Origin: a virus
DNA: 21,029 bases
Virus genome (UHGV): UHGV-1794847
Reading direction: 5' to 3' (one strand)
Shown: one piece after another, positions 502 to 17,878 of the stretch
How positions within the stretch are numbered: the stretch's first letter is position 1
How the letters are laid out: the number at the start of each line of letters is the position of its first letter
Notes under the pieces: model-generated
The model's input: only the letters and a program-made list of their open reading frames with translations
Database searches by the model: none
Told to the model about the DNA's origin: nothing
Program-made: the position numbers and the translations under genes

Positions 502-1992
502 TTATGCCTTTTTAGATTTGCGCTTTGCAGCAACTACGACTTCTGCTACGATAGCTTCTACAGTAGCTTCAGTTACAACAGACTTGTCTGCAACTTTTAC
601 AAGAGCTGCATGCAACTTGTAGTTGCCGACTTTGCTGAAAGTGCACTTGAATTCTGTTGTTGCGTTGTATTCTGCAGGTACTGCAAAGCCGCTGTCAGGA
701 CCCCATGCACCACTGTCTTCGAATGTCCAAGGCTGACCCTGTGAATCTGTTGCAGTGAATGTCACATGACCATCTTCAGGTGCTTCTACAATTTCATATT
801 GCAGCTGAACGCCATCAACACCTGCCTTACCAACTACTTCAGTTGCAAGCGTTGCATTGATTGCTACTTCTGTTGCAGGCTGAATGCTTGCAGGGACATC
901 TACAGAAATCTTGTATTCTGATACTTCAGGCTGAACTGGCTCAGCAACAACTACTGTAGACTCTGCTTCAACAACTACACTGTCATCAGCAACCTTGGCA
1001 AGAACTGCATGCAATTTGTATGTGCCAGCCTTGCTAAAGATTACAGTGAACTTTGTAGTTGCATTGTATTCTGCAGGAATGTCAAAGCCTGTTGCAGGCC
1101 CCCAAGTGCCATTGTCGACAAATGTATATTCCTTGCCAGCAGCGTCAGTAGCCTTGAATGTCACATGGCCATCTTCAGGTGCTTCGTCTACACCATAGCG
1201 GAACTGAACTTTGTCAACACCGACATCACCAACAGTCTTCGTTTTGAATGTTGCATCAAGCTCAACTTCAGTGTTTTCGATGATTGTTTCAGGCGCAGAC
1301 ATTTCAAACTCATACTCAGATACTGTTTGCACAGCTTGTTCAAGTTTGATGTTCTTTGTCTTGTTTGAAATCATAGTTTCACGACCAGCCTGGCTAACGT
1401 AGCCCTCTTTAGACACTTCCCAGACAATTTCTTCGCCTGACAAAACAGTCAACGAATTGCGAACTTCACCATTCATCTTGACAACTGCATCTGCAGGTTC
1501 TACATTGATTGTCAGTGTAGCTTTGCTGAGCTCAACAAGCTCCACTACTTGAATGACATCATGGTTTGTGAGCGTGATTGTGCCCTCCTGAGATTCATAG
1601 CCCTCTTTCGACACTTCCCACTTAATTGGAATGCCTGCGGGCACATTCTCAAGCATCTTTGTAGCCTCACCATTGATTTCTACATGAGCATCTTCAGGCA
1701 CTGGCTGAATTGTGATGCTGAACTTGTCTTTGCCAGGTTCAGGGTCTGGTCCGGGTCCTGGGTCATCACCAGTAATTGCAGGGATAATTGTCTTTTCGAT
1801 GACTTTTTGAGCTTCTGCAGTTGTGCCATAGAATTTGAGAGTTTTCTTGGCTTCTTCTACAGACATTTTCTCAAGATTGTCTGCAAGATATGTCAGACCA
1901 GTGACTGCAGCAATTTTCTGCCGCATTTCTGGGCTAATGACTACACCAGTAGATTTGACCACTGGAGCAGCTTGTTTTTGTTTCTTTGCCAT
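502..1992 (-). CDS. Repeat-containing surface/structural-like protein: Pro/Gly/Asp-rich linker, two PEGA-like repeats, two Ig-like ~105-aa repeats
   Basis: ATG at 1990..1992, TAA at 502..504. Two ~60-aa repeats with PEDAHVEINGE / PADAVVKMNGE and WEVSKEGY signatures resembling the PEGA domain; two C-terminal repeats sharing VEAPEDGHVTF..WGP..PAEYNATT..FSK.G.YKLHA. Linker GDDPGPGPDPEPG. Domain names are from memory of family signatures. Confidence 0.75.
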   Translation of the reverse strand: MAKKQKQAAPVVKSTGVVISPEMRQKIAAVTGLTYLADNLEKMSVEEAKKTLKFYGTTAEAQKVIEKTIIPAITGDDPGPGPDPEPGKDKFSITIQPVPEDAHVEINGEATKMLENVPAGIPIKWEVSKEGYESQEGTITLTNHDVIQVVELVELSKATLTINVEPADAVVKMNGEVRNSLTVLSGEEIVWEVSKEGYVSQAGRETMISNKTKNIKLEQAVQTVSEYEFEMSAPETIIENTEVELDATFKTKTVGDVGVDKVQFRYGVDEAPEDGHVTFKATDAAGKEYTFVDNGTWGPATGFDIPAEYNATTKFTVIFSKAGTYKLHAVLAKVADDSVVVEAESTVVVAEPVQPEVSEYKISVDVPASIQPATEVAINATLATEVVGKAGVDGVQLQYEIVEAPEDGHVTFTATDSQGQPWTFEDSGAWGPDSGFAVPAEYNATTEFKCTFSKVGNYKLHAALVKVADKSVVTEATVEAIVAEVVVAAKRKSKKA

Positions 1993-2135: not shown

Positions 2136-3428
2136 CTACAACAATGACGGCACTCGTTGAGTTTCAAGTGGGTCACTGACATTGATGCCTGTGTATGCAA
2201 CAAGTCGTTGTATTGGGCCAAGCACGAGTTTTTCGAACATGAGTCGCTTATTCATTGGTGGCACATCTGGCATGTACTTAGGCGTTGGCATTTCACCTGG
2301 CGCAAAGCCAAATGCATCGCAATATTGACGAGAACCAATTGGGATATTTGACAAATCTGACTTTGCTCTATCGACGAAATAGTAGAACACTCTACCGCCT
2401 TCAATCAATGTATATCGTGTTTCCAATCCATGAGCTTTTACAAGTGCGTTATGGTATGCACAAGCCCTGTACTGAGGCAGTACGCCTTTTGCTAACTGCC
2501 ATTCGCCATCATAGCTTAGCACATAGTCATGATACTTGTTTGCATTGACATATGCACAAAGTTTCTCCAAGTCTTGCTCGGCTTCAAAGCGTTTCCATAA
2601 TTTCTGTATGAGCTTTGGATATGTCGCAGAAGTCAATTCACCTCTGAACATTTTCTTGAATGCATAATCAAGCATTTGCCTAACAAGCATTGATGAGCCT
2701 GTTTGAATAAGTTCGATGCCTTTGCCTTGAATGTGCTCAGTAGGGTCTTCGAATACTCGACCATCTACATATATTTGAGCCTTTAAGTACTTTTTCTTTT
2801 GGGCAAATAATGCAGTGTCAGAAATCGTTTCGAGGTCAAATAGCAAAATTGAATTGCCATGACGTTTTGCGAGGTCTGCTGCATATGCCCCATTGAATAA
2901 TTCTTCCATACGATATTTGAATATCGCAAGAATCAAGTCATACCAATTTTTGCCTATGTAGCCAATTGATTTGACAGTTGGCTCAAAGTGAATGTACAAA
3001 GAGTCTGTGTCAATATACAACACTTTGTCTTCATAGGGTTCTTGCTTTGGCGACACAGACAAATCAAAATTGCCCTTCAATTGTGGGTCATTACGCAGCT
3101 TTTCATGCAATTCATAATCACACCACCACTTATTGTTAAGATAGTCATTTGCTACTCGTTCACCAAAGTGAATGAAGTTGCGGCCTTCAGCAGTAATTGA
3201 TTCTGCAACAGCCATATTAAAGAAGTGATAGAAACGATTGCTTGTAGCGCCATATATTGAGTTTCGACAACATTTTGCTGAGACTTGTAGTCCTGCATGC
3301 TTTAGTGATTCTTGCATTGCAAAATCTCTCAATTCAAATAGACGTTCAGTAGACAACTGACTCAAATCACCAGTCAAATCTACTCCATCTATTTCAATTT
3401 TTGACATATCTATCTGAGCTTCTGCCAT
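2136..3428 (-). CDS. Family-B DNA polymerase, C-terminal part (motif B, motif C, thumb)
   Basis: Motif B KCCRNSIYG verified at 3249..3275 (K-x3-NS-x-YG) and motif C YIDTDS at 3000..3017 (YGDTDS-type). Stop TAG at 2136..2138. Start set to ATG at 3426..3428; the track's 3518 start is a TTG codon, and an alternative ATG exists at 3459..3461. Confidence 0.85.
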   Translation of the reverse strand: MAEAQIDMSKIEIDGVDLTGDLSQLSTERLFELRDFAMQESLKHAGLQVSAKCCRNSIYGATSNRFYHFFNMAVAESITAEGRNFIHFGERVANDYLNNKWWCDYELHEKLRNDPQLKGNFDLSVSPKQEPYEDKVLYIDTDSLYIHFEPTVKSIGYIGKNWYDLILAIFKYRMEELFNGAYAADLAKRHGNSILLFDLETISDTALFAQKKKYLKAQIYVDGRVFEDPTEHIQGKGIELIQTGSSMLVRQMLDYAFKKMFRGELTSATYPKLIQKLWKRFEAEQDLEKLCAYVNANKYHDYVLSYDGEWQLAKGVLPQYRACAYHNALVKAHGLETRYTLIEGGRVFYYFVDRAKSDLSNIPIGSRQYCDAFGFAPGEMPTPKYMPDVPPMNKRLMFEKLVLGPIQRLVAYTGINVSDPLETQRVPSLL

Positions 3429-3448
3429 AAGTTGTTTATTTTTGATTT

Positions 3449-3459
3449 TATTGTACAAC
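3449..3459 (-). promoter_or_regulatory. Conserved GTTGTACAATA element (sense strand), 20 nt upstream of the polymerase C-part ATG
   Basis: Plus-strand tattgtacaac at 3449..3459; identical 11-mer also at 8225..8235 and 10317..10327, each upstream of a minus-strand start. Contains a TACAAT -10-like hexamer and the palindrome TTGTACAA. Confidence 0.35.
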
Positions 3460-3496
3460 ATGCAAAACGAGTTTGCACTGTTTTGATACAACGACA

Positions 3497-4459
3497 CTAA
3501 ACTTTTACATGACCACAATCAAACACAGGATAAAATTGCCGTTGTAGCATAGTATTTGTGTCAAAATTGCCATCAATAAGATGTTCGTGTGTGCGCCAAT
3601 TATGCCAATGTTTTTGAATTGTCTGCAAGTTATCTGATTTTTGTGGATTCAATGCAAAGTCTGTTGATAGCACAGGTTCATTGTTCAAATGCGCTTGTAT
3701 TGCTGCAATAACTGCTTCAACAGACATCCACTCAAATGCAGTCACACAAATAAAACCTGCACGCAATGCATCTTGAGTTTTGTAAAAGTGATATGTTGGA
3801 TGAGTTGCTGCGCATTTTGATGCATTTTTGACAAGTGCATCAAAGCTTTTTGCGCTGTTATGCGACACTGTTGGATTGATTTCTACTACGACATTGTCAT
3901 ATCGCAAATCATACAACTTTAAGCCTATTCTGTAGTCATATTCAAAATTTATGCCAAGACGTTCAAATAGCAATGCATGCCAACGTTCATTAAGTTTTGA
4001 CTGTATTTGACCAGATGCTGCTCTGCATTTTGCATGCATGCAAAAATACGGCACATCATATCGCTCTTCACATGTTTGACGCAACTTAGCAATGTTTGCA
4101 GGCCCAAGCTTGCCAAAATGCTTAAGCTTAGTTGCATTTGCTTTGTCAGTATTGCTTGGACCTGCTTTGCCAAAATGTTCAAGCTTTGTCGCATTCGCTT
4201 TGTCAGTATTGCCTGGTCCAAGCTTGCCAAAATGTTTAAGCTTAGTCTGCTTGCATTGCTCTGTTACATATGATAACTGCATATTGTGTTCTACACCATA
4301 TTTTCGCAACATTGCAATTCGCCTGATGTATTTTCTACGAATTTTGCTGTGCGACGTCTTTCTTGGTGCGTATCTAACATATGGTGTATTTGCAATCAAC
4401 TCATCTCGCTCGTTTTCAAGTTTAGCAATACGAGCATCAATCTCTTCTTTTGTCATCAT
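3497..4459 (-). CDS. Repeat-containing putative DNA-binding / homing-endonuclease-like protein, class unassigned
   Basis: ATG at 4457..4459. Three tandem 19-aa repeats (TKLKHFGKLGPGNTDKANA) encoded by a 57-bp DNA repeat; basic N-terminus. Sits between the two polymerase halves, where freestanding endonucleases typically reside. No GIY-YIG or HNH motif recognised; the motif LYDLRYDNVVVEINPTVSH is only loosely nuclease-like. Confidence 0.55.
   Translation of the reverse strand: MMTKEEIDARIAKLENERDELIANTPYVRYAPRKTSHSKIRRKYIRRIAMLRKYGVEHNMQLSYVTEQCKQTKLKHFGKLGPGNTDKANATKLEHFGKAGPSNTDKANATKLKHFGKLGPANIAKLRQTCEERYDVPYFCMHAKCRAASGQIQSKLNERWHALLFERLGINFEYDYRIGLKLYDLRYDNVVVEINPTVSHNSAKSFDALVKNASKCAATHPTYHFYKTQDALRAGFICVTAFEWMSVEAVIAAIQAHLNNEPVLSTDFALNPQKSDNLQTIQKHWHNWRTHEHLIDGNFDTNTMLQRQFYPVFDCGHVKV
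4101..4260 (-). repeat. 57-bp in-frame tandem repeat, about 2.8 copies, inside CDS 3497..4459
   Basis: Units starting near 4108, 4165 and 4222 (gcttgccaaaatgcttaagcttagttgcatttgctttgtcagtattgc and variants); period 57 = 19 codons. Confidence 0.8.
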
Positions 4460-4543: not shown

Positions 4544-5371
4544 TTAGAATGGCAGGTCGCCATCGTCACCTGCAGCGTCAAATTCAGCTGCAATGTCATA
4601 TACCAACGTCATTGCGATTCGCAAATCGCGCTTCTTAGACTTCAGGCGCATGATATCATGACCAGAATTGTTTGTGATGACTGAACATTCAAACTCTTCA
4701 TTGCCATCAATAAATGACAGCATTGATTTGTGAATTGTGATTGGCGACAAATCAGATGGGTAATTTGCATCAATCACATATTCAAAGTTGTTGTTCTTGG
4801 CAATTAGCCCTCGTTCAGTCGTACGAATCTCAATGCCGGGCAATTCCTTGTCACCAGTATTCAATGAACCATACGATGACATGATGCCAAAGTGATTTGA
4901 CGTCAAATCGAGCTTTCTCAGATTTGTTGTGCTATCAAACAACATTGACATATCATTGTCAGACAGCTCAAAGTAGCCAAGTGATGGCATTGAACAAACC
5001 TGATTGATTTTGAGCTGATTGTTTGAGATTACAATGAGCTCTGCAATTGTATCTGTACCAATTTGTTTGACATAGATTTCAATCATTGCAGATGAGCCAA
5101 ATGCAGCAAGTACTCGATTGTTGAATTGCGTGCCATTGTAAATGAGCGCTTTGACTGTGACATCTTTGAGTGTAGACTCATAATGTTCGCAAATGTCAAG
5201 CACATTAAGTATCTGCGACTTTACAAAGCTACTATTGCCAGCATCAGTTCTGATTCGCTGGTCATTGAGTGAAAAGCTAAGCTTGCCATCGCATTTTAAT
5301 GATGATGCAAACAATGCTCGCAGCATATCAACGTTTGCATTGCGTAATGTAATTTTGTTCAGATTTTCCAT
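4544..5371 (-). CDS. Putative ssDNA-binding protein (SSB-like acidic C-terminal tail)
   Basis: ATG at 5369..5371. C-terminus ...AAEFDAAGDDGDLPF mirrors the acidic tail ending in Phe of bacterial SSB (DDDIPF) and T7 gp2.5; located in the replication module. Fold not verified. Confidence 0.5.
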   Translation of the reverse strand: MENLNKITLRNANVDMLRALFASSLKCDGKLSFSLNDQRIRTDAGNSSFVKSQILNVLDICEHYESTLKDVTVKALIYNGTQFNNRVLAAFGSSAMIEIYVKQIGTDTIAELIVISNNQLKINQVCSMPSLGYFELSDNDMSMLFDSTTNLRKLDLTSNHFGIMSSYGSLNTGDKELPGIEIRTTERGLIAKNNNFEYVIDANYPSDLSPITIHKSMLSFIDGNEEFECSVITNNSGHDIMRLKSKKRDLRIAMTLVYDIAAEFDAAGDDGDLPF

Positions 5372-5439: not shown

Positions 5440-5814
5440 TCATCGATTGTCGCCTGACCCATGTAGTACGCCTCGTAATTTTCGAGACTGCAGTTTCTGA
5501 ATGTTAAGCTGACAAATGTCAGTTAAGCTGTAGCCCAAATCATGTGCAAGAGTTGCAGCGTACCACATGACATCACTGAGCTCTTTTGCGATTTCCTTGC
5601 GAATGTCTTCATTGTCAAAATCGCCATTCTTGTCTCGAATGACTTTTTTGACTTTGTCTGCAACTTCGCCTGCTTCACCCGTTAAGCCAAGTGTTGGATA
5701 GATAATTGCAGCTGATTTAGGATACACTGCGCTATCAAGTGCAGCAATCTGATATTCATCAATAGTTGAAATCTGTGCATGGTCGATTACGCCATGTTCA
5801 TCTCGTTTAAGCAT
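5440..5814 (-). CDS. mazG: MazG-like nucleoside triphosphate pyrophosphohydrolase
   Basis: ATG at 5812..5814. Motifs LGLTGEAGEVADKVKK and ELSDVMWYAATLAHDLGYSL match the MazG EEXX(E/D) helix signature common in phages. Confidence 0.8.
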   Translation of the reverse strand: MLKRDEHGVIDHAQISTIDEYQIAALDSAVYPKSAAIIYPTLGLTGEAGEVADKVKKVIRDKNGDFDNEDIRKEIAKELSDVMWYAATLAHDLGYSLTDICQLNIQKLQSRKLRGVLHGSGDNR

Positions 5815-5815
5815 A

Positions 5816-6307
5816 TCATTTACGTTTTTGTTTGACTCTCAATCGTTTTTGCATAAATGCTCTTGTAGCTTCACCAAAAGCCATTTCATCTCGTTCACCG
5901 CCGCAAAGCTTTGCAAGCTTATTGAATGTGTCTTGGTCAATCATTGTGTATGTTGAGTTGTTGACCACATGCAATGCAAACTGAATCAGCGGTGTGCCTG
6001 GCTGCAAGCAGAATGGCTCTTTACCTGCATTGTACACTGCAAGATGAATCTCGCCATGATAGTCTGAATCTACAAACTCACTTGTTTTAATGATAAGATG
6101 ATTTCGTGAAATACCCGACTTGTTGTAGGCAATCAATGCATGACCAGCAGGCACAAGTGCTTTGATGCCAGATGGAATTGCAATGCCCTCGCCAGGTTGC
6201 AGCATTGTTTGCACAAAATCATTGGGTATGCAAAAGTCCCATGCGCCAGATTCTGCTGTTGACTTAAAAGGACTTTCTACATTTCTGCATTTTGCAAAGA
6301 ATAACAT
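5816..6307 (-). CDS. dut: dUTPase-like protein (dUTPase/dCTP deaminase superfamily)
   Basis: ATG at 6305..6307, stop TGA at 5816..5818, one nt before the MazG start. Motif-like segments SGAWDF, KSGISRNH, FVDSDYHGEI (compare G-x-ID-x-DYRGE), LIQF, and a C-terminal Gly-rich GGERDEMAFGEAT. Confidence 0.7.
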   Translation of the reverse strand: MLFFAKCRNVESPFKSTAESGAWDFCIPNDFVQTMLQPGEGIAIPSGIKALVPAGHALIAYNKSGISRNHLIIKTSEFVDSDYHGEIHLAVYNAGKEPFCLQPGTPLIQFALHVVNNSTYTMIDQDTFNKLAKLCGGERDEMAFGEATRAFMQKRLRVKQKRK

Positions 6308-6695: not shown

Positions 6696-8201
6696 TTACA
6701 ATTTGATTGCACCTCTACGAGCAAGCTCTTCTTCAATCAATCTAACATGATTGTTAGCATACCAAAATTGCAATTTTTTGTGATAATTGCGAATGTCGCC
6801 AAGCTGTTCTTGAGTTTCTTTATACATTGAAGGCTCTCTATTGTCATACAGACAATTATTGACAGACACAAAGTAATTTGGGTCTGCTTTGTAATGCTCG
6901 ATTTCATCAGGATTTGTCAAACGTCTAATAAAGTTGTCTGGTGAAATATTCGCCGAGCGCATACTTGACGGATACAACGAGTTTGCATCAACACAGACAA
7001 CCATACGAGCCCAATGGTTAAATGGCTGCTTAACAAAGCCGCCCTCAAATGAATGTACAACATTCTCCGGACCGCCTTGAGCGCATACAACTTTACCGCC
7101 ATATTTGTTGTACAAATATGTCATCATGACGCCCTCAGATTGCTTAACTGGTCCTTGACAGTGATTCATGTCAATATTTGTCATATTTGACAATGACATT
7201 ACATTTGATATCAAGTCAGTTTTTGCAGCAATCATCGCATTGACCATCGTATCGACAGCATTATATGCAATGAACGTGCATGGATGATACAAATACAGCT
7301 CTTTAAGTGTGCAATCATAGGGCAGCTTACCTACGCCAAACATACGATGTGCAATATAGTCAAGTCGCAATGACTCTTTTTGCCACACTGAATAGTCGTA
7401 TGTGTCCATGAGTTGCATGTAGTCATCAATGTACTTGTGATATGGCATGCCATTGCCCCAGACAGTTCTGCCAACTGGAGATGCCAATGCTAAATCAATA
7501 TTGTGCATTGCGCATCGATTTTTGATATAGATGCTATCGAAGCCATTGATGTTCCAACCTGTCAATGCAGGAATGTTTTTGAAGAGCTTAGTCACCCAAA
7601 AATGCAACAATTCATGCTCATTTGCATGTTGAAAGATTTTGACAGTCGGACGCTCTTTCAAATATGCAGCAAAGCAATGCTGACCCATGTACTCTTGAAT
7701 GATGTTATTGACAAACTCAAATGCATCGTCCAGTGTTGGGTTTTGTTTGCCACAGCTTTTGCGCAAATCATCGTCATTCAACAAGTCAACAGTTGTCTGA
7801 ATGACACAATTACATTGCTCATCACATGTACTTATTGCATTAATGGGCATTTCAGCTTTGTCAGGCTTTGGAAAGCCATTGCCAATTTCAGTCTCAATAT
7901 CGTAAAAGTACAACTTTGGTCTACGATAAGCAAACAATTCAGCTTTGTCAGCTTCAGGCAATTCAAATAAGAATTGCAGTAAGTCAAATTGATTGAATCG
8001 CTTTGCTGTAACTCGAGTTACTGGCAATTTGCGCCAATCTTGAATATCTGCATATTGCGGCTCTACATGGTCTGATATTTGCCATACTGGAAATTGATAT
8101 GGCTGTTCACAGACAGGATATGTTTTAATATCAATGCCACCTTGCTCATTAACGTATGAAACTTCAATGCCATGTGACAAATATGCTACATCGACAATCA
8201 T
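6696..8201 (-). CDS. Family-B DNA polymerase, N-terminal part (3'-5' exonuclease domain plus motif A)
   Basis: Exo I FYDIETE (about 7893..7901), Exo II-like WNINGFD, Exo III-like YNAVD, and motif A DANSLYPS verified at 6966..6989. Ends with TAA at 6696..6698 about 100 aa after motif A, before any motif B. Start set to ATG 8199..8201; the track's 8237 start is TTG. Confidence 0.9.
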   Translation of the reverse strand: MIVDVAYLSHGIEVSYVNEQGGIDIKTYPVCEQPYQFPVWQISDHVEPQYADIQDWRKLPVTRVTAKRFNQFDLLQFLFELPEADKAELFAYRRPKLYFYDIETEIGNGFPKPDKAEMPINAISTCDEQCNCVIQTTVDLLNDDDLRKSCGKQNPTLDDAFEFVNNIIQEYMGQHCFAAYLKERPTVKIFQHANEHELLHFWVTKLFKNIPALTGWNINGFDSIYIKNRCAMHNIDLALASPVGRTVWGNGMPYHKYIDDYMQLMDTYDYSVWQKESLRLDYIAHRMFGVGKLPYDCTLKELYLYHPCTFIAYNAVDTMVNAMIAAKTDLISNVMSLSNMTNIDMNHCQGPVKQSEGVMMTYLYNKYGGKVVCAQGGPENVVHSFEGGFVKQPFNHWARMVVCVDANSLYPSSMRSANISPDNFIRRLTNPDEIEHYKADPNYFVSVNNCLYDNREPSMYKETQEQLGDIRNYHKKLQFWYANNHVRLIEEELARRGAIKL

Positions 8202-8212
8202 ATTATTATCTT

Positions 8213-8623
8213 TTAGAATAGAGATATTGTACAACAATTTGATTCAGGTTGCCATTCTACAATATGCGCATCAAAGTGTTTGTTAAGCCAATGTGCAAGT
8301 ATGTGTCTATGACAAAATGCAGATGGTCTGCACCAGCATAACAGTACAATGTCTCGTTCACCAGCAAGAAGCTTTATGCGATGCAGCATCAAACTTATCT
8401 GTGACAATGCAGCGTCAAGTTTTGCAGTGTATTGCTCTGCATATTGTGCATTGTCAAGCAAGCCTACTTTATGCAAACGAACAAGTGACATGTAATCAGG
8501 CATGACGTCAGTCCATGTAAAATCTGCTATGAAGCCCTTAGGTTTTGTTGCAGATACTTGAACAAGAAATGCGTTATCAGGCAGATGCCTGCATGCATAA
8601 TATGAAGTCAAGATTCTTGTCAT
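8213..8623 (-). CDS. DUF488-like protein
   Basis: ATG at 8621..8623, overlapping the upstream stop as ATGA. C-terminal RDIVLLCWCRPSAFCHRHILAHWL resembles the conserved LLC..E....CHR.l.a..L block of DUF488 (YeaO-like) proteins, recalled from memory. Confidence 0.5.
   Translation of the reverse strand: MTRILTSYYACRHLPDNAFLVQVSATKPKGFIADFTWTDVMPDYMSLVRLHKVGLLDNAQYAEQYTAKLDAALSQISLMLHRIKLLAGERDIVLLCWCRPSAFCHRHILAHWLNKHFDAHIVEWQPESNCCTISLF
8225..8235 (-). promoter_or_regulatory. Conserved GTTGTACAATA element, 23 nt upstream of the polymerase N-part ATG
   Basis: Plus tattgtacaac at 8225..8235; same 11-mer as at 3449..3459 and 10317..10327. Confidence 0.35.
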
Positions 8624-11898: not shown

Positions 11899-12129
11899 TT
11901 ATTCGAAATCCGTGTCGTCTACATTTTCATTAGGGTCATAGATGAGCCATACAAATGCTGCACAGCCAAGTATGAATAAGCCTCCGCCAATGATTGTCGT
12001 AAAAACCGAACCAATCCAATGCTTCATAATATCACCGAGCGGATTCAATGTTTCATAGCCAATCATAAATGCAACAAATACAACTATTATTGCTGCTATT
12101 GCTTTGTTTGTTGTGTTTCGTTTTATCAT
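11899..12129 (-). CDS. Small membrane protein, two predicted TM helices, acidic C-terminus
   Basis: The track start 12210 is GTG; first ATG at 12127..12129 gives MIKRNTTNKAIAAIIVVFVAFMIGY...IGGGLFILGCAAFVWLIYDPNENVDDTDFE. Confidence 0.5.
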   Translation of the reverse strand: MIKRNTTNKAIAAIIVVFVAFMIGYETLNPLGDIMKHWIGSVFTTIIGGGLFILGCAAFVWLIYDPNENVDDTDFE

Positions 12130-12252
12130 TATTGTAGAGGTTTTAGTGTTCTGTATATTATGTTCGAATATATGAGGACATATATTATATATAGATATAT
12201 TACAACACACAAATCATTTTTGCACACTTTTATAAACCAAAATTTCACAAAA

Positions 12253-17266: not shown

Positions 17267-17878
17267 TTATGGTGTAACAATCGGTCCGCCACCAGGCAAA
17301 CTTGAACATGTTTGCATGTATGTATACAACAAATTTCCTGCGTTTTGCATAATGTTTGCGAACATCAATGCAATGCCGCGCAAATCAGCTTCGCCTTCAA
17401 ATGTGTTGATAAATGCTTGCTGAGCGCATGCAAACATTACTGGCACAGTAGATGCACTTGTCATTGCTATCACAGGTCCGCCAGGCGACAAGGGCAACAC
17501 CGGTGGCGATGCTGGCACAGTTAAGTTTGTTGGAATCCATGCTGCAACTGCTGCAGCATAAGGCTTAAAGCCATTGCCAAACTTTATTGCAATGTTCTTT
17601 GGGTCTGATTCACCTTGAAAAGTTTCTATAAGTGCTTGTCTACCTGCTTCAAATAGAGATTGCTCAAGTGTAGCAGTTGGACCTGCAGTTATTGGACCGC
17701 CGACAGGCAAACCTGTGCAAGTTGCAATGTAGCTTGCTACACCCGTAGCAAACAATTGACTGAATTTGTTGGCAAACTTTGTCGCAATTTGCGGTCTATC
17801 AAGCTCACCTTGAAAAGTTGCAGTGTATGCTTGATATGCAATGGGCTGCACAGCAGCTTGCAATGTAGCGCCTGGCAT
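17267..17878 (-). CDS. Triple-repeat protein (three ~65-aa repeats)
   Basis: ATG at 17876..17878. Repeats share TF(Q/E)GE.D....IA.KF.N ... LP.GGPI; the DNA shows three degenerate ~200-bp tandem repeats. Confidence 0.7.
   Translation of the reverse strand: MPGATLQAAVQPIAYQAYTATFQGELDRPQIATKFANKFSQLFATGVASYIATCTGLPVGGPITAGPTATLEQSLFEAGRQALIETFQGESDPKNIAIKFGNGFKPYAAAVAAWIPTNLTVPASPPVLPLSPGGPVIAMTSASTVPVMFACAQQAFINTFEGEADLRGIALMFANIMQNAGNLLYTYMQTCSSLPGGGPIVTP

What the first reader, a model, noticed from the sequence alone, without database searches (positions are those of the whole stretch)
4544..5371. 275-aa protein ending in an SSB-type acidic tail (DDGDLPF)
The C-terminus ...AAEFDAAGDDGDLPF closely resembles the protein-interaction tail of bacterial SSB (DDDIPF) and T7 gp2.5, both ending in an essential Phe. 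The rest of the protein is not recognisably an OB-fold by eye, and at 275 aa it is longer than typical SSBs. It may be a divergent ssDNA-binding protein or a protein that mimics the SSB tail to recruit host replication factors.
Basis: partly seen in the sequence, partly recalled or inferred. Interest (0 to 1): 0.5.

Follow-up and report, generated by a model that had tools for sequence, protein, structure and literature searches.

The report
Phage sliding clamp with SSB-type tail
The 275-residue protein is not a single-stranded-DNA-binding protein. It is the very divergent, so far unannotated DNA sliding clamp of a large phage, and it ends in the same short docking peptide (…D-L-P-F) that bacterial SSB uses to recruit its partner proteins.

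Summary
The ORF is real. It lies at window 4544-5371 on the minus strand, encodes 275 aa and ends …AAEFDAAGDDGDLPF*.

- A confident AlphaFold model (pLDDT 93) shows two DNA-clamp domains followed by a flexible tail.
- A profile-profile comparison with a gp45 family alignment gives 92% probability.

Context supports the clamp reading:
- The gene sits between the two halves of a split T4-type family-B DNA polymerase. The same arrangement is found in five related phages or contigs: PTm1, pT24, PAU, MA9V-2 and metagenomic contig L001.
- Three of the cultured relatives (PTm1, PAU, MA9V) have a gp44-type clamp loader. In PTm1, the genome I searched almost completely, there is no canonical gp45.

The tail:
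- 37 of 54 family representatives carry acidic, aromatic tails. Canonical gp45 has none.
- Only this narrow clade ends in DD-x-DLPF.
- The tip is invariant while the linker varies about four times faster than the core.
- It matches the DLPF form of the SSB C-terminus in Flavobacteriia, the probable host phylum.

What the tail binds (host SSB partners, phage replisome proteins or the clamp itself) remains inferred. I rate this a new variant of a known kind, of moderate interest.

The parts
4544..5371 (-). Gene for the 275-aa sliding-clamp protein (ATG at 5371, TAA stop at 4544-4546)
   Evidence: ORF list and translation. Close homologues all start MENLNK, METLNK or MDNLNK. Fold and profile evidence.
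4991..5371 (-). Clamp domain 1 (residues 1-127)
4604..4990 (-). Clamp domain 2 (residues 128-256)
4547..4603 (-). Flexible acidic C-terminal tail (residues 257-275, VYDIAAEFDAAGDDGDLPF; net charge about -6)
   Evidence: pLDDT falls to 58-68, with a short helix at residues 261-267. Charge. 37 of 54 family representatives have an acidic/aromatic tail here, and canonical gp45 has none.
4547..4558 (-). SSB-Ct-type tip D-L-P-F (residues 272-275)
   Evidence: Invariant in all clade members from 43 to 100% identity. Same form as the SSB C-termini of Flavobacteriia and Firmicutes (PMC3991886, PMC5531588).
4472..4502 (-). Terminator-like hairpin (14-bp stem, 7 G-C pairs, 3-nt loop, then a T-run) beginning 42 nt downstream of the clamp stop codon
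   Evidence: Consensus scan. This is a pattern match only, not proof of function.
6696..8237 (-). N-terminal half of the split family-B DNA polymerase (exonuclease domain plus motif A, DANSLYPS). The likely true start is the ATG 12 codons into the listed ORF.
   Evidence: Pfam DNA_pol_B_exo1 (1e-12); PHROG 2062 (1.6e-62). 36% identical to the Chryseobacterium phage MA9V polymerase.
2136..3428 (-). C-terminal half of the split family-B DNA polymerase (motif C YIDTDS, thumb). It ends ...ETQRVPSLL, a plausible clamp-binding tail. The ORF lister gives 2136-3518 from a TTG; the ATG at 3428 gives 430 aa, as in orthologue L002.
   Evidence: Pfam DNA_pol_B (3.6e-15); PHROG 1918 (2.4e-46). C-termini compared.
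3497..4459 (-). Homing-endonuclease-like gene (DUF7487) inserted between the clamp and the PolB C-half. It is not part of the clamp system.
   Evidence: Pfam DUF7487 (1.1e-6); PHROG 3339, homing endonuclease (8.6e-4). Absent at this position in relative L001, where the clamp directly abuts the PolB C-half.
5440..6307 (-). MazG-like pyrophosphatase (5440-5814) and dUTPase (5816-6307), directly upstream on the same strand and probably co-transcribed with the clamp
   Evidence: Pfam and PHROG hits. The same order is found in L002, and a dUTPase lies upstream in L001.

Best explanation
The gene encodes the DNA sliding clamp (the processivity factor, functional counterpart of T4 gp45) of a roughly 175-kb T4-superfamily phage that probably infects Bacteroidota.

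Shown:
- The protein has two DNA-clamp domains.
- It is a remote homologue of gp45.
- It is encoded between the two halves of the phage's split family-B DNA polymerase.
- In related cultured phages it is the only clamp-like gene found, and it accompanies a gp44-type clamp loader.

Inferred:
- Three subunits form a ring that the phage clamp loader places on primed DNA.
- The polymerase docks on the ring through its C-terminal tail (...RVPSLL).
- As in T4, the gp55-type late sigma factor encoded nearby probably docks on it too.

The tail. Unlike gp45 or PCNA, each subunit carries a flexible, strongly acidic 19-residue C-terminal tail. Its linker drifts while its tip, D-L-P-F, is fixed. That tip has the form of the bacterial SSB C-terminal peptide, and specifically the DLPF variant reported for Flavobacteriia SSBs. 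The most likely mechanism (inferred) is that the tip acts as a short linear docking motif: the terminal Phe and its carboxylate insert into a hydrophobic pocket flanked by basic residues on a partner protein. A DNA-loaded clamp would then display three SSB-like hooks.

Whether the partners are host SSB-interacting enzymes (mimicry), the phage's own replisome proteins (as with the T7 gp4 and gp2.5 tails) or both is unresolved.
For: Fold:
- AF2 with the 54-sequence alignment gives pLDDT 93.2 and pTM 0.87.
- The first, shallower model already gave clamp hits for domain 1.
- The best BFVD matches are unannotated proteins of Tenacibaculum jumbo phages, followed by viral PCNAs and beta-clamps.

Homology:
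- hhalign of the family profile against a gp45 profile (T4 gp45 plus 59 gp45s found beside clamp loaders) gives 92.2% probability, E 5.8e-7, over 162 collinear columns.

Context:
- The order PolB-N ... clamp ... PolB-C is conserved in the window, L001, PTm1 ORF-237, PAU gp109, pT24 and MA9V-2.
- PTm1, PAU and MA9V have a gp44-type AAA+ loader.
- A gp45 profile finds nothing in about 98.6% of the PTm1 genome, while the family profile finds exactly one gene, at E 1e-67.
- Iyer et al. 2021 (PMC7824862) state that this jumbo-phage group typically has an RFC-type loader and a PCNA-superfamily clamp.
- The polymerase halves and the late sigma factors end in short hydrophobic or acidic motifs resembling T4's ...SLDFLFG.

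Tail:
- Conserved to 43% identity.
- Tip 0 of 4 variable, against linker 6 of 15 and core 27 of 256.
- Low pLDDT, 58-68.
- Rare terminus in phage ORFs.
- The two Flavobacteriia SSBs studied end in DLPF, and Firmicutes SSBs end in DDDLPF.
- No Shine-Dalgarno sequence precedes any of 25 genes, and the closest cultured relatives infect Chryseobacterium and Tenacibaculum.
Against: - No sequence library recognises the protein as a clamp. There are no hits in Pfam, PHROGs or the PDB sequences for any of the 54 family members. hhalign against T4 gp45 alone is not significant. The assignment therefore rests on a predicted structure plus one profile-profile match.
- Oligomeric state, DNA loading and polymerase binding are not shown.
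- This phage's own clamp loader and SSB were not located. Four IMG/VR scans missed its two contigs, so the loader is inferred from relatives.
- The host is inferred, not known.
- In three cultured relatives the clamp tail is not a copy of the phage gp32 tail, so a shared-partner model has no support there.
- The wider family's tails are acidic and aromatic but not SSB-like. The DLPF tip could therefore be one of many workable endings rather than specific mimicry.
Confidence: 0.8

Rival explanations
1. Divergent SSB: an OB-fold or gp2.5-like ssDNA-binding protein whose acidic tail regulates DNA binding and recruits partners.
For: The tail has the SSB-Ct form, DD-x-DLPF. The phage's own SSB was not located.
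Confidence: 0.02
2. Host mimicry (a sub-hypothesis about the tail): the clamp displays the host's own SSB C-terminal peptide. It would either pull host SSB-partner enzymes (for example PriA, RecQ, RecJ, RecO, UNG, topoisomerase III or RNase H) onto phage DNA, or titrate them away from host SSB, helping phage replication or shutting down host repair.
For: The tip is D-L-P-F after Asp residues, the form reported for the two Flavobacteriia SSBs studied (PMC3991886) and for Firmicutes (PMC5531588). The probable host phylum is Bacteroidota. None of the roughly 45 gp32-type phage SSB tails examined ends in [IL]PF, so the motif resembles the bacterial SSB tail, not the phage one. The tip is invariant on a drifting linker.
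Against: No interaction was tested. The host and its SSB sequence are unknown. Relatives in the same family work with quite different tails. Position -4 is Gly in the window protein (Asp in P0006, P0009 and P0010), so the match to DDDLPF is not perfect. No precedent was found in the literature searched.
Confidence: 0.35
3. Internal replisome tether (a sub-hypothesis about the tail): the acidic, Phe-terminated tail binds basic patches on the phage's own polymerase, clamp loader or helicase. The T7 gp2.5 and gp4 tails do this on T7 DNA polymerase (established knowledge). The tail would keep spare polymerases or the loader at the fork.
For: Acidic/aromatic tails are a family-wide feature, present in 37 of 54 representatives, whatever the tip. 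That argues for a conserved phage-internal partner. The gene is embedded in the polymerase operon. gp32-type tails of related phages share similar motifs, such as LNFDDFEK and EDWLKEFD.
Against: Within PTm1, PAU and MA9V-2 the clamp and gp32 tails are not alike. It does not explain why this clade alone converged on the bacterial SSB form. No partner was identified.
Confidence: 0.35
4. Self-regulation or turnover (sub-hypotheses about the tail). The tail might fold back into the clamp's own partner-binding pocket or its central channel as a pseudo-ligand or DNA mimic. Alternatively, the C-terminal LPF might be a protease degron.
For: Family tails such as DFDDFD and EFENF resemble clamp-binding peptides like T4 gp43 ...SLDFLFG. 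AF2 places a short helix at residues 261-267. In S. mutans, a C-terminal LPF from SsbA is a ClpXP degron (PMC5143411).
Against: The same paper shows that ClpXP of E. coli and S. gordonii does not recognise LPF. The model gives low confidence for the tail and I could not inspect any docked pose. 17 of 54 family members lack a tail.
Confidence: 0.15
5. Loader-independent processivity factor of the herpesvirus UL42/UL44 type: a clamp-fold protein that does not form a closed ring and holds DNA through a basic face.
Confidence: 0.08

Closest known systems
T4 gp45 sliding clamp (Pfam gp45 N- and C-terminal sliding-clamp domain families; PDB 6drt)
   Different: No match to any Pfam model, the gp45 domain models included, and no PHROG match. 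About 10% identity. Roughly 30 residues longer in the core. It carries a 19-residue acidic tail, which none of 60 canonical gp45s has. The gene lies inside the split polymerase gene pair instead of next to genes 44 and 62.
Archaeal/eukaryotic PCNA
   Different: No sequence-level match (Pfam and PDB searches). No SSB-like tail in PCNA (from established knowledge; not surveyed here).
Bacterial SSB C-terminal peptide (SSB-Ct: DDDIPF or DDDLPF)
   Same: C-terminal D-L-P-F preceded by Asp residues at the end of a flexible linker, with an upstream F-D as in MDFDDDIPF. DLPF is the variant in Flavobacterium psychrophilum, Psychroflexus torquis, S. aureus and B. subtilis.
   Different: It is attached to a clamp rather than an OB-fold tetramer. 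The linker is very short (about 15 residues). Gly replaces Asp at position -4 in the window protein.
T7 gp2.5 and gp4 acidic tails ending in Phe
   Same: Precedent (established knowledge) for a non-SSB replisome protein, the gp4 helicase-primase, carrying the same kind of acidic, Phe-terminated tail as the phage SSB and using it to bind the polymerase.
   Different: The proteins and folds are unrelated. The T7 tails do not have the [IL]-P-F form. T7 has no sliding clamp.
Unannotated orthologues: Tenacibaculum phage PTm1 ORF-237, pT24, Sphingomonas phage PAU gp109, Chryseobacterium phage MA9V2_194
   Same: Same family (hmmsearch E 1e-53 to 1e-67; Foldseek TM 0.84-0.86). Same position between the polymerase halves. 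Acidic/aromatic tails.
   Different: The tails end ...WDDFETDTNWDN...GWADFN and ...NEFAAFANGH, not DLPF. All are annotated only as hypothetical proteins.

Membership tests
Bacterial SSB (OB-fold tetramer, PF00436) | OB-fold ssDNA-binding domain | tested here: not met
Bacterial SSB (OB-fold tetramer, PF00436) | Acidic C-terminal tip D-D-D-[IL]-P-F on a disordered linker | tested here: met
   The window protein ends ...DDGDLPF and relatives end ...DDDDLPF or ...DSDDLPF. Low pLDDT in the tail. Reference forms come from PMC5531588 and PMC3991886.
Bacterial SSB (OB-fold tetramer, PF00436) | Binds ssDNA | not testable with these tools
   Needs a gel-shift assay with purified protein.
T7 gp2.5-type SSB | OB-fold core with a C-terminal acidic tail ending in Phe | tested here: not met
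   The tail feature is present, but the core is a clamp fold.
gp45/PCNA-type sliding clamp (two-domain subunit) | Two tandem DNA-clamp domains | tested here: met
gp45/PCNA-type sliding clamp (two-domain subunit) | Sequence membership in a curated clamp family (Pfam gp45, PCNA or DnaN models) | tested here: not met
   No Pfam, PHROG or PDB-sequence hit for any of the 54 members. Only profile-profile homology to gp45 was detected (92%, E 6e-7).
gp45/PCNA-type sliding clamp (two-domain subunit) | Closed trimeric ring around DNA | not testable with these tools
   No multimer prediction was available. Needs SEC-MALS, a structure or AF-multimer.
gp45/PCNA-type sliding clamp (two-domain subunit) | A cognate AAA+ clamp loader in the same genome | tested here: inconclusive
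   A gp44-type loader is present in relatives carrying the same gene: PTm1, PAU and MA9V. It was not located on this phage's 175-kb contigs, because the scan was saturated by more than 600 matches.
gp45/PCNA-type sliding clamp (two-domain subunit) | It is the only clamp in the genome, that is, the replicative one | tested here: met
   Tested in the relative PTm1, not in this phage. The gp45 profile finds nothing (best E 0.02) and the family profile finds only ORF-237.
gp45/PCNA-type sliding clamp (two-domain subunit) | The polymerase carries a C-terminal clamp-binding peptide | tested here: inconclusive
   The PolB C-halves end ...RVPSLL...LLPALI...QMMMEL...FKNMFKKK and ...IQNSFGN. These are plausible clamp-binding tails, but there is no defined consensus and binding was not tested.
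Herpesvirus UL42/UL44-type processivity factor | Clamp fold with a basic DNA-binding face, no loader required | tested here: not met

The most novel reading that the evidence does not exclude
A phage replicative sliding clamp has acquired the host's SSB C-terminal docking peptide. Each DNA-loaded ring would then present three SSB-like hooks that capture, or compete for, the host's SSB-interactome (restart helicases, RecQ/RecJ/RecO, UNG, topoisomerase III and others). This would be a previously undescribed way for a virus to plug into, or disarm, the host's genome-maintenance hub.
Probability: 0.3. Interest if true: 0.75.

Novelty: new variant of a known kind. Interest (0 to 1): 0.5.

Why it matters
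1. It assigns a function to a protein family with no annotation: at least 57 clusters at 50% identity, 'hypothetical' in PTm1, pT24, PAU and MA9V. That fills the missing clamp slot beside the gp44-type loader in this lineage of large Bacteroidota-type phages (shown by a near-whole-genome search in PTm1).

2. About two-thirds of the family carry acidic, aromatic C-terminal tails that canonical gp45 lacks. That points to a different wiring of clamp-partner contacts, with the clamp offering a peptide as well as a pocket.

3. One clade has converged on the bacterial SSB-Ct peptide. If that tip engages host SSB partners, it would be a new route of viral interference with, or exploitation of, the SSB hub. 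It can be tested directly with a synthetic peptide and a four-residue deletion.

Tried and rejected
Searches that found nothing for the target protein:
- Direct sequence searches in Pfam, PHROGs and PDB sequences, and for the whole family.
- tblastn and megablast of the window against 50,697 phage records.
- hhalign against a single T4 gp45 sequence was not significant. It became informative only with a gp45 family profile.

The first structure prediction, with six close sequences, resolved only domain 1. The exhaustive representative search was needed to obtain a good model.

Attempts to locate this phage's own SSB and clamp loader on IMG/VR contigs 3300045988_149023 and _152288 all missed. 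I used three gp32 alignments and one gp44 alignment. I do not count this as absence.

A scan of bacterial genomes for the clamp found nothing, so it gave no host clue.

The Bacteroidota -7 promoter motif TAnnTTTG is not enriched: 24 matches against 21 expected.

The hypothesis that the clamp tail copies the phage gp32 tail was rejected for PTm1, PAU and MA9V-2.

No family member lies beside the loader in 80 T4-like loader loci; those loci have canonical gp45 instead.

Literature searches found no precedent for a clamp with an SSB-type tip, but the library is incomplete.

The two other [DE][ILMV]PF-ended ORFs in the fetched loci look, from reading their sequences, like CobS/MoxR-type AAA+ proteins (not checked with a profile search). 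They appear unrelated to replication.

Full report
**1. The observation.**

The plus-strand translation of 4544-5371 is full of stop codons. The ORF is on the minus strand. It starts at ATG 5371, stops at TAA 4544-4546, encodes 275 aa and ends ...LVYDIAAEFDAAGDDGDLPF. So the reported feature is real at the stated coordinates.

The feature is more than chance:
- Ten close homologues exist in public assemblies, and the tail motif F-D...DD-x-D-L-P-F persists at 77% identity (P0009...NFDDADSDDLPF) and at 43% (P0010...NFDDESDDDDLPF).
- Among 11 distinct sequences of the close clade, the core varies at 27 of 256 positions and the tail linker (257-271) at 6 of 15 (Fisher p = 0.005). The last four residues do not vary at all. 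A fixed tip on a drifting linker is the pattern of a short linear motif on a flexible tether.
Four are orthologues of this gene. The other two look, from their sequences, like CobS/MoxR-type AAA+ proteins unrelated to replication.

**2. What the protein is.**

Sequence libraries are silent. There is no significant Pfam, PHROG or PDB-sequence match, and no relative in 50,697 phage records by tblastn.

An exhaustive HMMER search of 1.84 billion representatives with a profile of the close homologues found 57 proteins, almost all 247-296 aa. None of the 54 used for the alignment has any Pfam or PHROG assignment.

Structure prediction:
- With the 54-sequence alignment the model is confident: pLDDT 93.2, pTM 0.87. 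It shows two similar domains (residues 1-127 and 128-256) and a low-confidence tail.
- In BFVD the best matches are uncharacterised proteins of Tenacibaculum phages PTm1 and pT24 (TM 0.84-0.86), followed by viral PCNAs and beta-clamps.

There is no OB-fold, so the SSB reading is refuted.

Is this homology or only a shared fold?
- hhalign of the family profile against T4 gp45 alone was not significant.
- I then collected 59 canonical gp45s lying beside gp44-type loaders in 80 IMG/VR loci and built a gp45 profile from them.
- The profile-profile comparison gives 92.2% probability, E 5.8e-7, over 162 collinear columns running to the end of the core.

The family is therefore best described as an extremely divergent branch of the gp45-type clamps.

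**3. Genomic context.**

All the plausible genes in the window lie on the minus strand.

The clamp gene sits inside a split family-B (T4 gp43-type) polymerase:
- The N-half is at 6696-8237 and carries the exonuclease domain and motif A.
- The C-half is at 2136-3428 and carries motifs B and C and the thumb.
- Between them lie a 116-aa ORF, a dUTPase, MazG, the clamp, and a homing-endonuclease-like DUF7487 gene.

A strong terminator-like hairpin (4502-4472) follows the clamp gene. In the 43%-identical relative L001 the endonuclease gene is absent and the clamp directly abuts the PolB C-half.

The polymerase is closest to those of jumbo phages of Bacteroidota, Chryseobacterium MA9V-1/2 (36% identity) and Tenacibaculum PTm1/PTm5/pT24, and to that of Sphingomonas PAU. 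In each of these a member of the same family lies between or next to the polymerase halves, and all are annotated as hypothetical proteins: PTm1 ORF-237, PAU gp109, pT24 and MA9V2_194.

Three of these phages (PTm1, PAU, MA9V) have a gp44-type AAA+ clamp loader. In about 98.6% of the PTm1 genome the canonical-gp45 profile finds nothing (best E 0.02), whereas the family profile finds exactly ORF-237 (E 1e-67). So PTm1 has a loader, no canonical clamp, and this protein in the polymerase operon. This fits the statement of Iyer et al. 2021 (PMC7824862) that group-2 jumbo phages typically combine a T4-type polymerase, gp32, an RFC-type loader and a PCNA-superfamily clamp.

Further consistent details:
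- The polymerase C-halves end in short hydrophobic motifs...RVPSLL...LLPALI...QMMMEL...FKNMFKKK and ...IQNSFGN.
- A gp55-type late sigma factor lies two genes beyond the PolB C-half: L005:15271-15894 (PHROG 234, 2.7e-8), syntenic in MA9V-2 and PTm1. These sigma factors end ...PIDSLFQTGKHE...PLDAFINNDADKAE and ...ADFSYSTIFTDDV.
- Both sets of endings resemble the T4 clamp-binding peptide ...ASLDFLFG.

This phage itself is represented by two IMG/VR contigs of about 175 kb. I could not locate its loader or SSB on them. That step is therefore inferred from relatives.

**4. The tail.**

When the family is anchored on the last core strand, 37 of 54 representatives carry a tail of 15-33 residues with net charge -4 to -13 and 2-5 aromatic residues. 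Typical motifs are [DE]F-x-[DE]F and N-W, for example IDFDDFDNL, SEFENF and NWEEFE. The other 17 have no tail. None of the 60 canonical gp45s has one.

Only the window's clade ends in D-L-P-F. That clade comprises two clusters at 50% identity. It keeps the proximal E/N-F-D of the family motif and replaces the distal part with DD-x-DLPF.

The window protein's core is mildly acidic (pI 5.6). The tail adds a net charge of about -6.

The tip has the form of the bacterial SSB C-terminal peptide:
- DDDIPF in Gram-negative model organisms.
- DDDLPF in S. aureus and B. subtilis (PMC5531588).
- DLPF in the two Flavobacteriia SSBs characterised by Nowak et al. (PMC3991886, Table 1). The primers listed there translate to ...VENDLPF and ...EEDDLPF.

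A Bacteroidota host is likely for two reasons. The closest cultured relatives infect Chryseobacterium and Tenacibaculum. No Shine-Dalgarno sequence precedes any of the 25 genes.

By contrast, none of the roughly 45 gp32-type phage SSB tails I examined ends in [IL]PF; they end ...EDWLKEFDIK...DDDLYSGL or ...DDDFMKEVMG. In PTm1, PAU and MA9V-2 the clamp tail is not a copy of the gp32 tail of the same genome. The tip therefore resembles the bacterial SSB motif, not the phage one.

**5. Mechanism.**

Shown:
- A clamp fold.
- Remote gp45 homology.
- Embedding in the polymerase operon.
- It is the only clamp candidate in a relative that has a loader.
- A disordered acidic tail with a selectively maintained SSB-Ct-type tip.

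Inferred:
- The protein forms a trimeric ring, loaded by the phage gp44-type loader.
- It tethers the two-part polymerase, and probably the late sigma factor, through their C-terminal peptides.
- The tail is an additional docking peptide offered by the clamp itself.

From established knowledge of SSB-Ct recognition, the terminal Phe side chain and carboxylate sit in a hydrophobic pocket with a basic rim, as in ExoI, RecQ, PriA and chi. The DLPF tip is expected to bind such pockets.

Two partner sets are about equally plausible:
- Host SSB-interacting enzymes, i.e. mimicry. The motif's bacterial form and its match to the host phylum favour this.
- The phage's own replisome proteins. The family-wide presence of acidic/aromatic tails favours this, as does the T7 precedent in which both gp2.5 and the gp4 helicase-primase use Phe-terminated acidic tails to hold the polymerase.

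Self-binding as a pseudo-ligand, or a degron role, are less likely but not excluded. LPF is a ClpXP degron in S. mutans but not in E. coli or S. gordonii (PMC5143411).

**6. Comparison and novelty.**

Functionally this is a gp45/PCNA-type sliding clamp. It fails curated sequence-family membership and is a distinct, unannotated family.

A sliding clamp in a T4-superfamily phage is expected. The new points are:
- the identification of this family as that clamp;
- the clamp-borne acidic tails;
- in this clade, a tip of bacterial SSB-Ct form.

I found no literature precedent for a clamp with such a tip, though the searchable library is incomplete.

Verdict: new variant of a known kind. Interest is about 0.5. 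It would be higher, about 0.75, if the tail is shown to engage the host SSB-interactome, which I put at about 0.3 probability.

Noticed in passing
window 2136-3428 and 6696-8237 (minus strand): The family-B DNA polymerase is split between motif A and motif B into two genes. They are 3.3 kb apart, with five genes between them. The split is shared with PTm1, PAU, MA9V and L001, but the inserted genes differ: TnpB in MA9V-2; an intein-containing fragment and a VSR endonuclease in PTm1.
   Followed up: partly
window 3497-4459 (minus strand): A homing-endonuclease-like DUF7487 gene lies just after the clamp's terminator-like hairpin. The orthologous slot holds a 382-aa gene in L002 and nothing in L001, which suggests a mobile insertion. 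A second DUF7487-type gene occurs further along in L002 and L005.
   Followed up: partly
L005:15271-15894 (beyond window position 1); MA9V-2 L003:16932-17336; PTm1 L004:19795-20157: A gp55-type late sigma factor (PHROG 234) lies two genes downstream of the PolB C-half, in conserved synteny. Its C-terminus carries a hydrophobic/acidic motif. This suggests T4-like clamp-activated late transcription in this lineage.
   Followed up: partly
window, upstream of all 25 minus-strand genes: There are no Shine-Dalgarno-like sequences. The leaders are A-rich. This is consistent with a Bacteroidota-type host. The TAnnTTTG promoter motif is not enriched.
   Followed up: partly
window 17267-17878 (minus strand): A 203-aa ORF is built of three tandem repeats of about 65 aa (...TFQGExD...IAxKFxNxF...GGPI...). 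No family match.
   Followed up: no
window 502-1992 (minus strand): A 496-aa protein with an internally duplicated C-terminal module (...EYNATTKFTVIFSKAGTYKLHAVLAKVADDSVV... and ...EYNATTEFKCTFSKVGNYKLHAALVKVADKSVV...). Its L002 orthologue carries Pfam Head_fiber_dimeric. PTm1-type phages are known for head fibres.
   Followed up: no
window 11899-12210 (minus strand): A small predicted membrane protein ends in an acidic/aromatic tail (...NENVDDTDFE). It was the only other genuine-looking ORF in the window flagged by the tail scan.
   Followed up: no
L011-L052 (IMG/VR gp32 loci): gp32-type SSBs of many uncultured T4-like phages share strongly conserved C-terminal motifs (...[DE]IEDWLKEFDIK, ...DDELENWLNSAV, ...LNFDDFEK...DDDIYAGL). 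These may be lineage-specific partner-binding peptides, and some resemble the clamp-family tails.
   Followed up: partly
L168:44-994 and L171:5887-7086: Proteins in T4-like loader loci, which look from their sequences like CobS/MoxR-type AAA+ ATPases, end in ...SVEVPF and ...DEEEELPF. They are the only other [DE][ILMV]PF termini in 2.4 Mb of phage loci.
   Followed up: no
window 8213-8623 (minus strand): A DUF488-N3a family protein (Pfam 1.4e-9) is encoded immediately upstream of, and overlapping, the PolB N-half ORF. Function unknown.
   Followed up: no
A2 alignment (P0033-P0064 subset): 17 of 54 clamp-family representatives (247-259 aa) lack the tail altogether. They appear to form a separate subfamily with sequences starting MKLKI..RV... 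Their genomic context was not examined.
   Followed up: no
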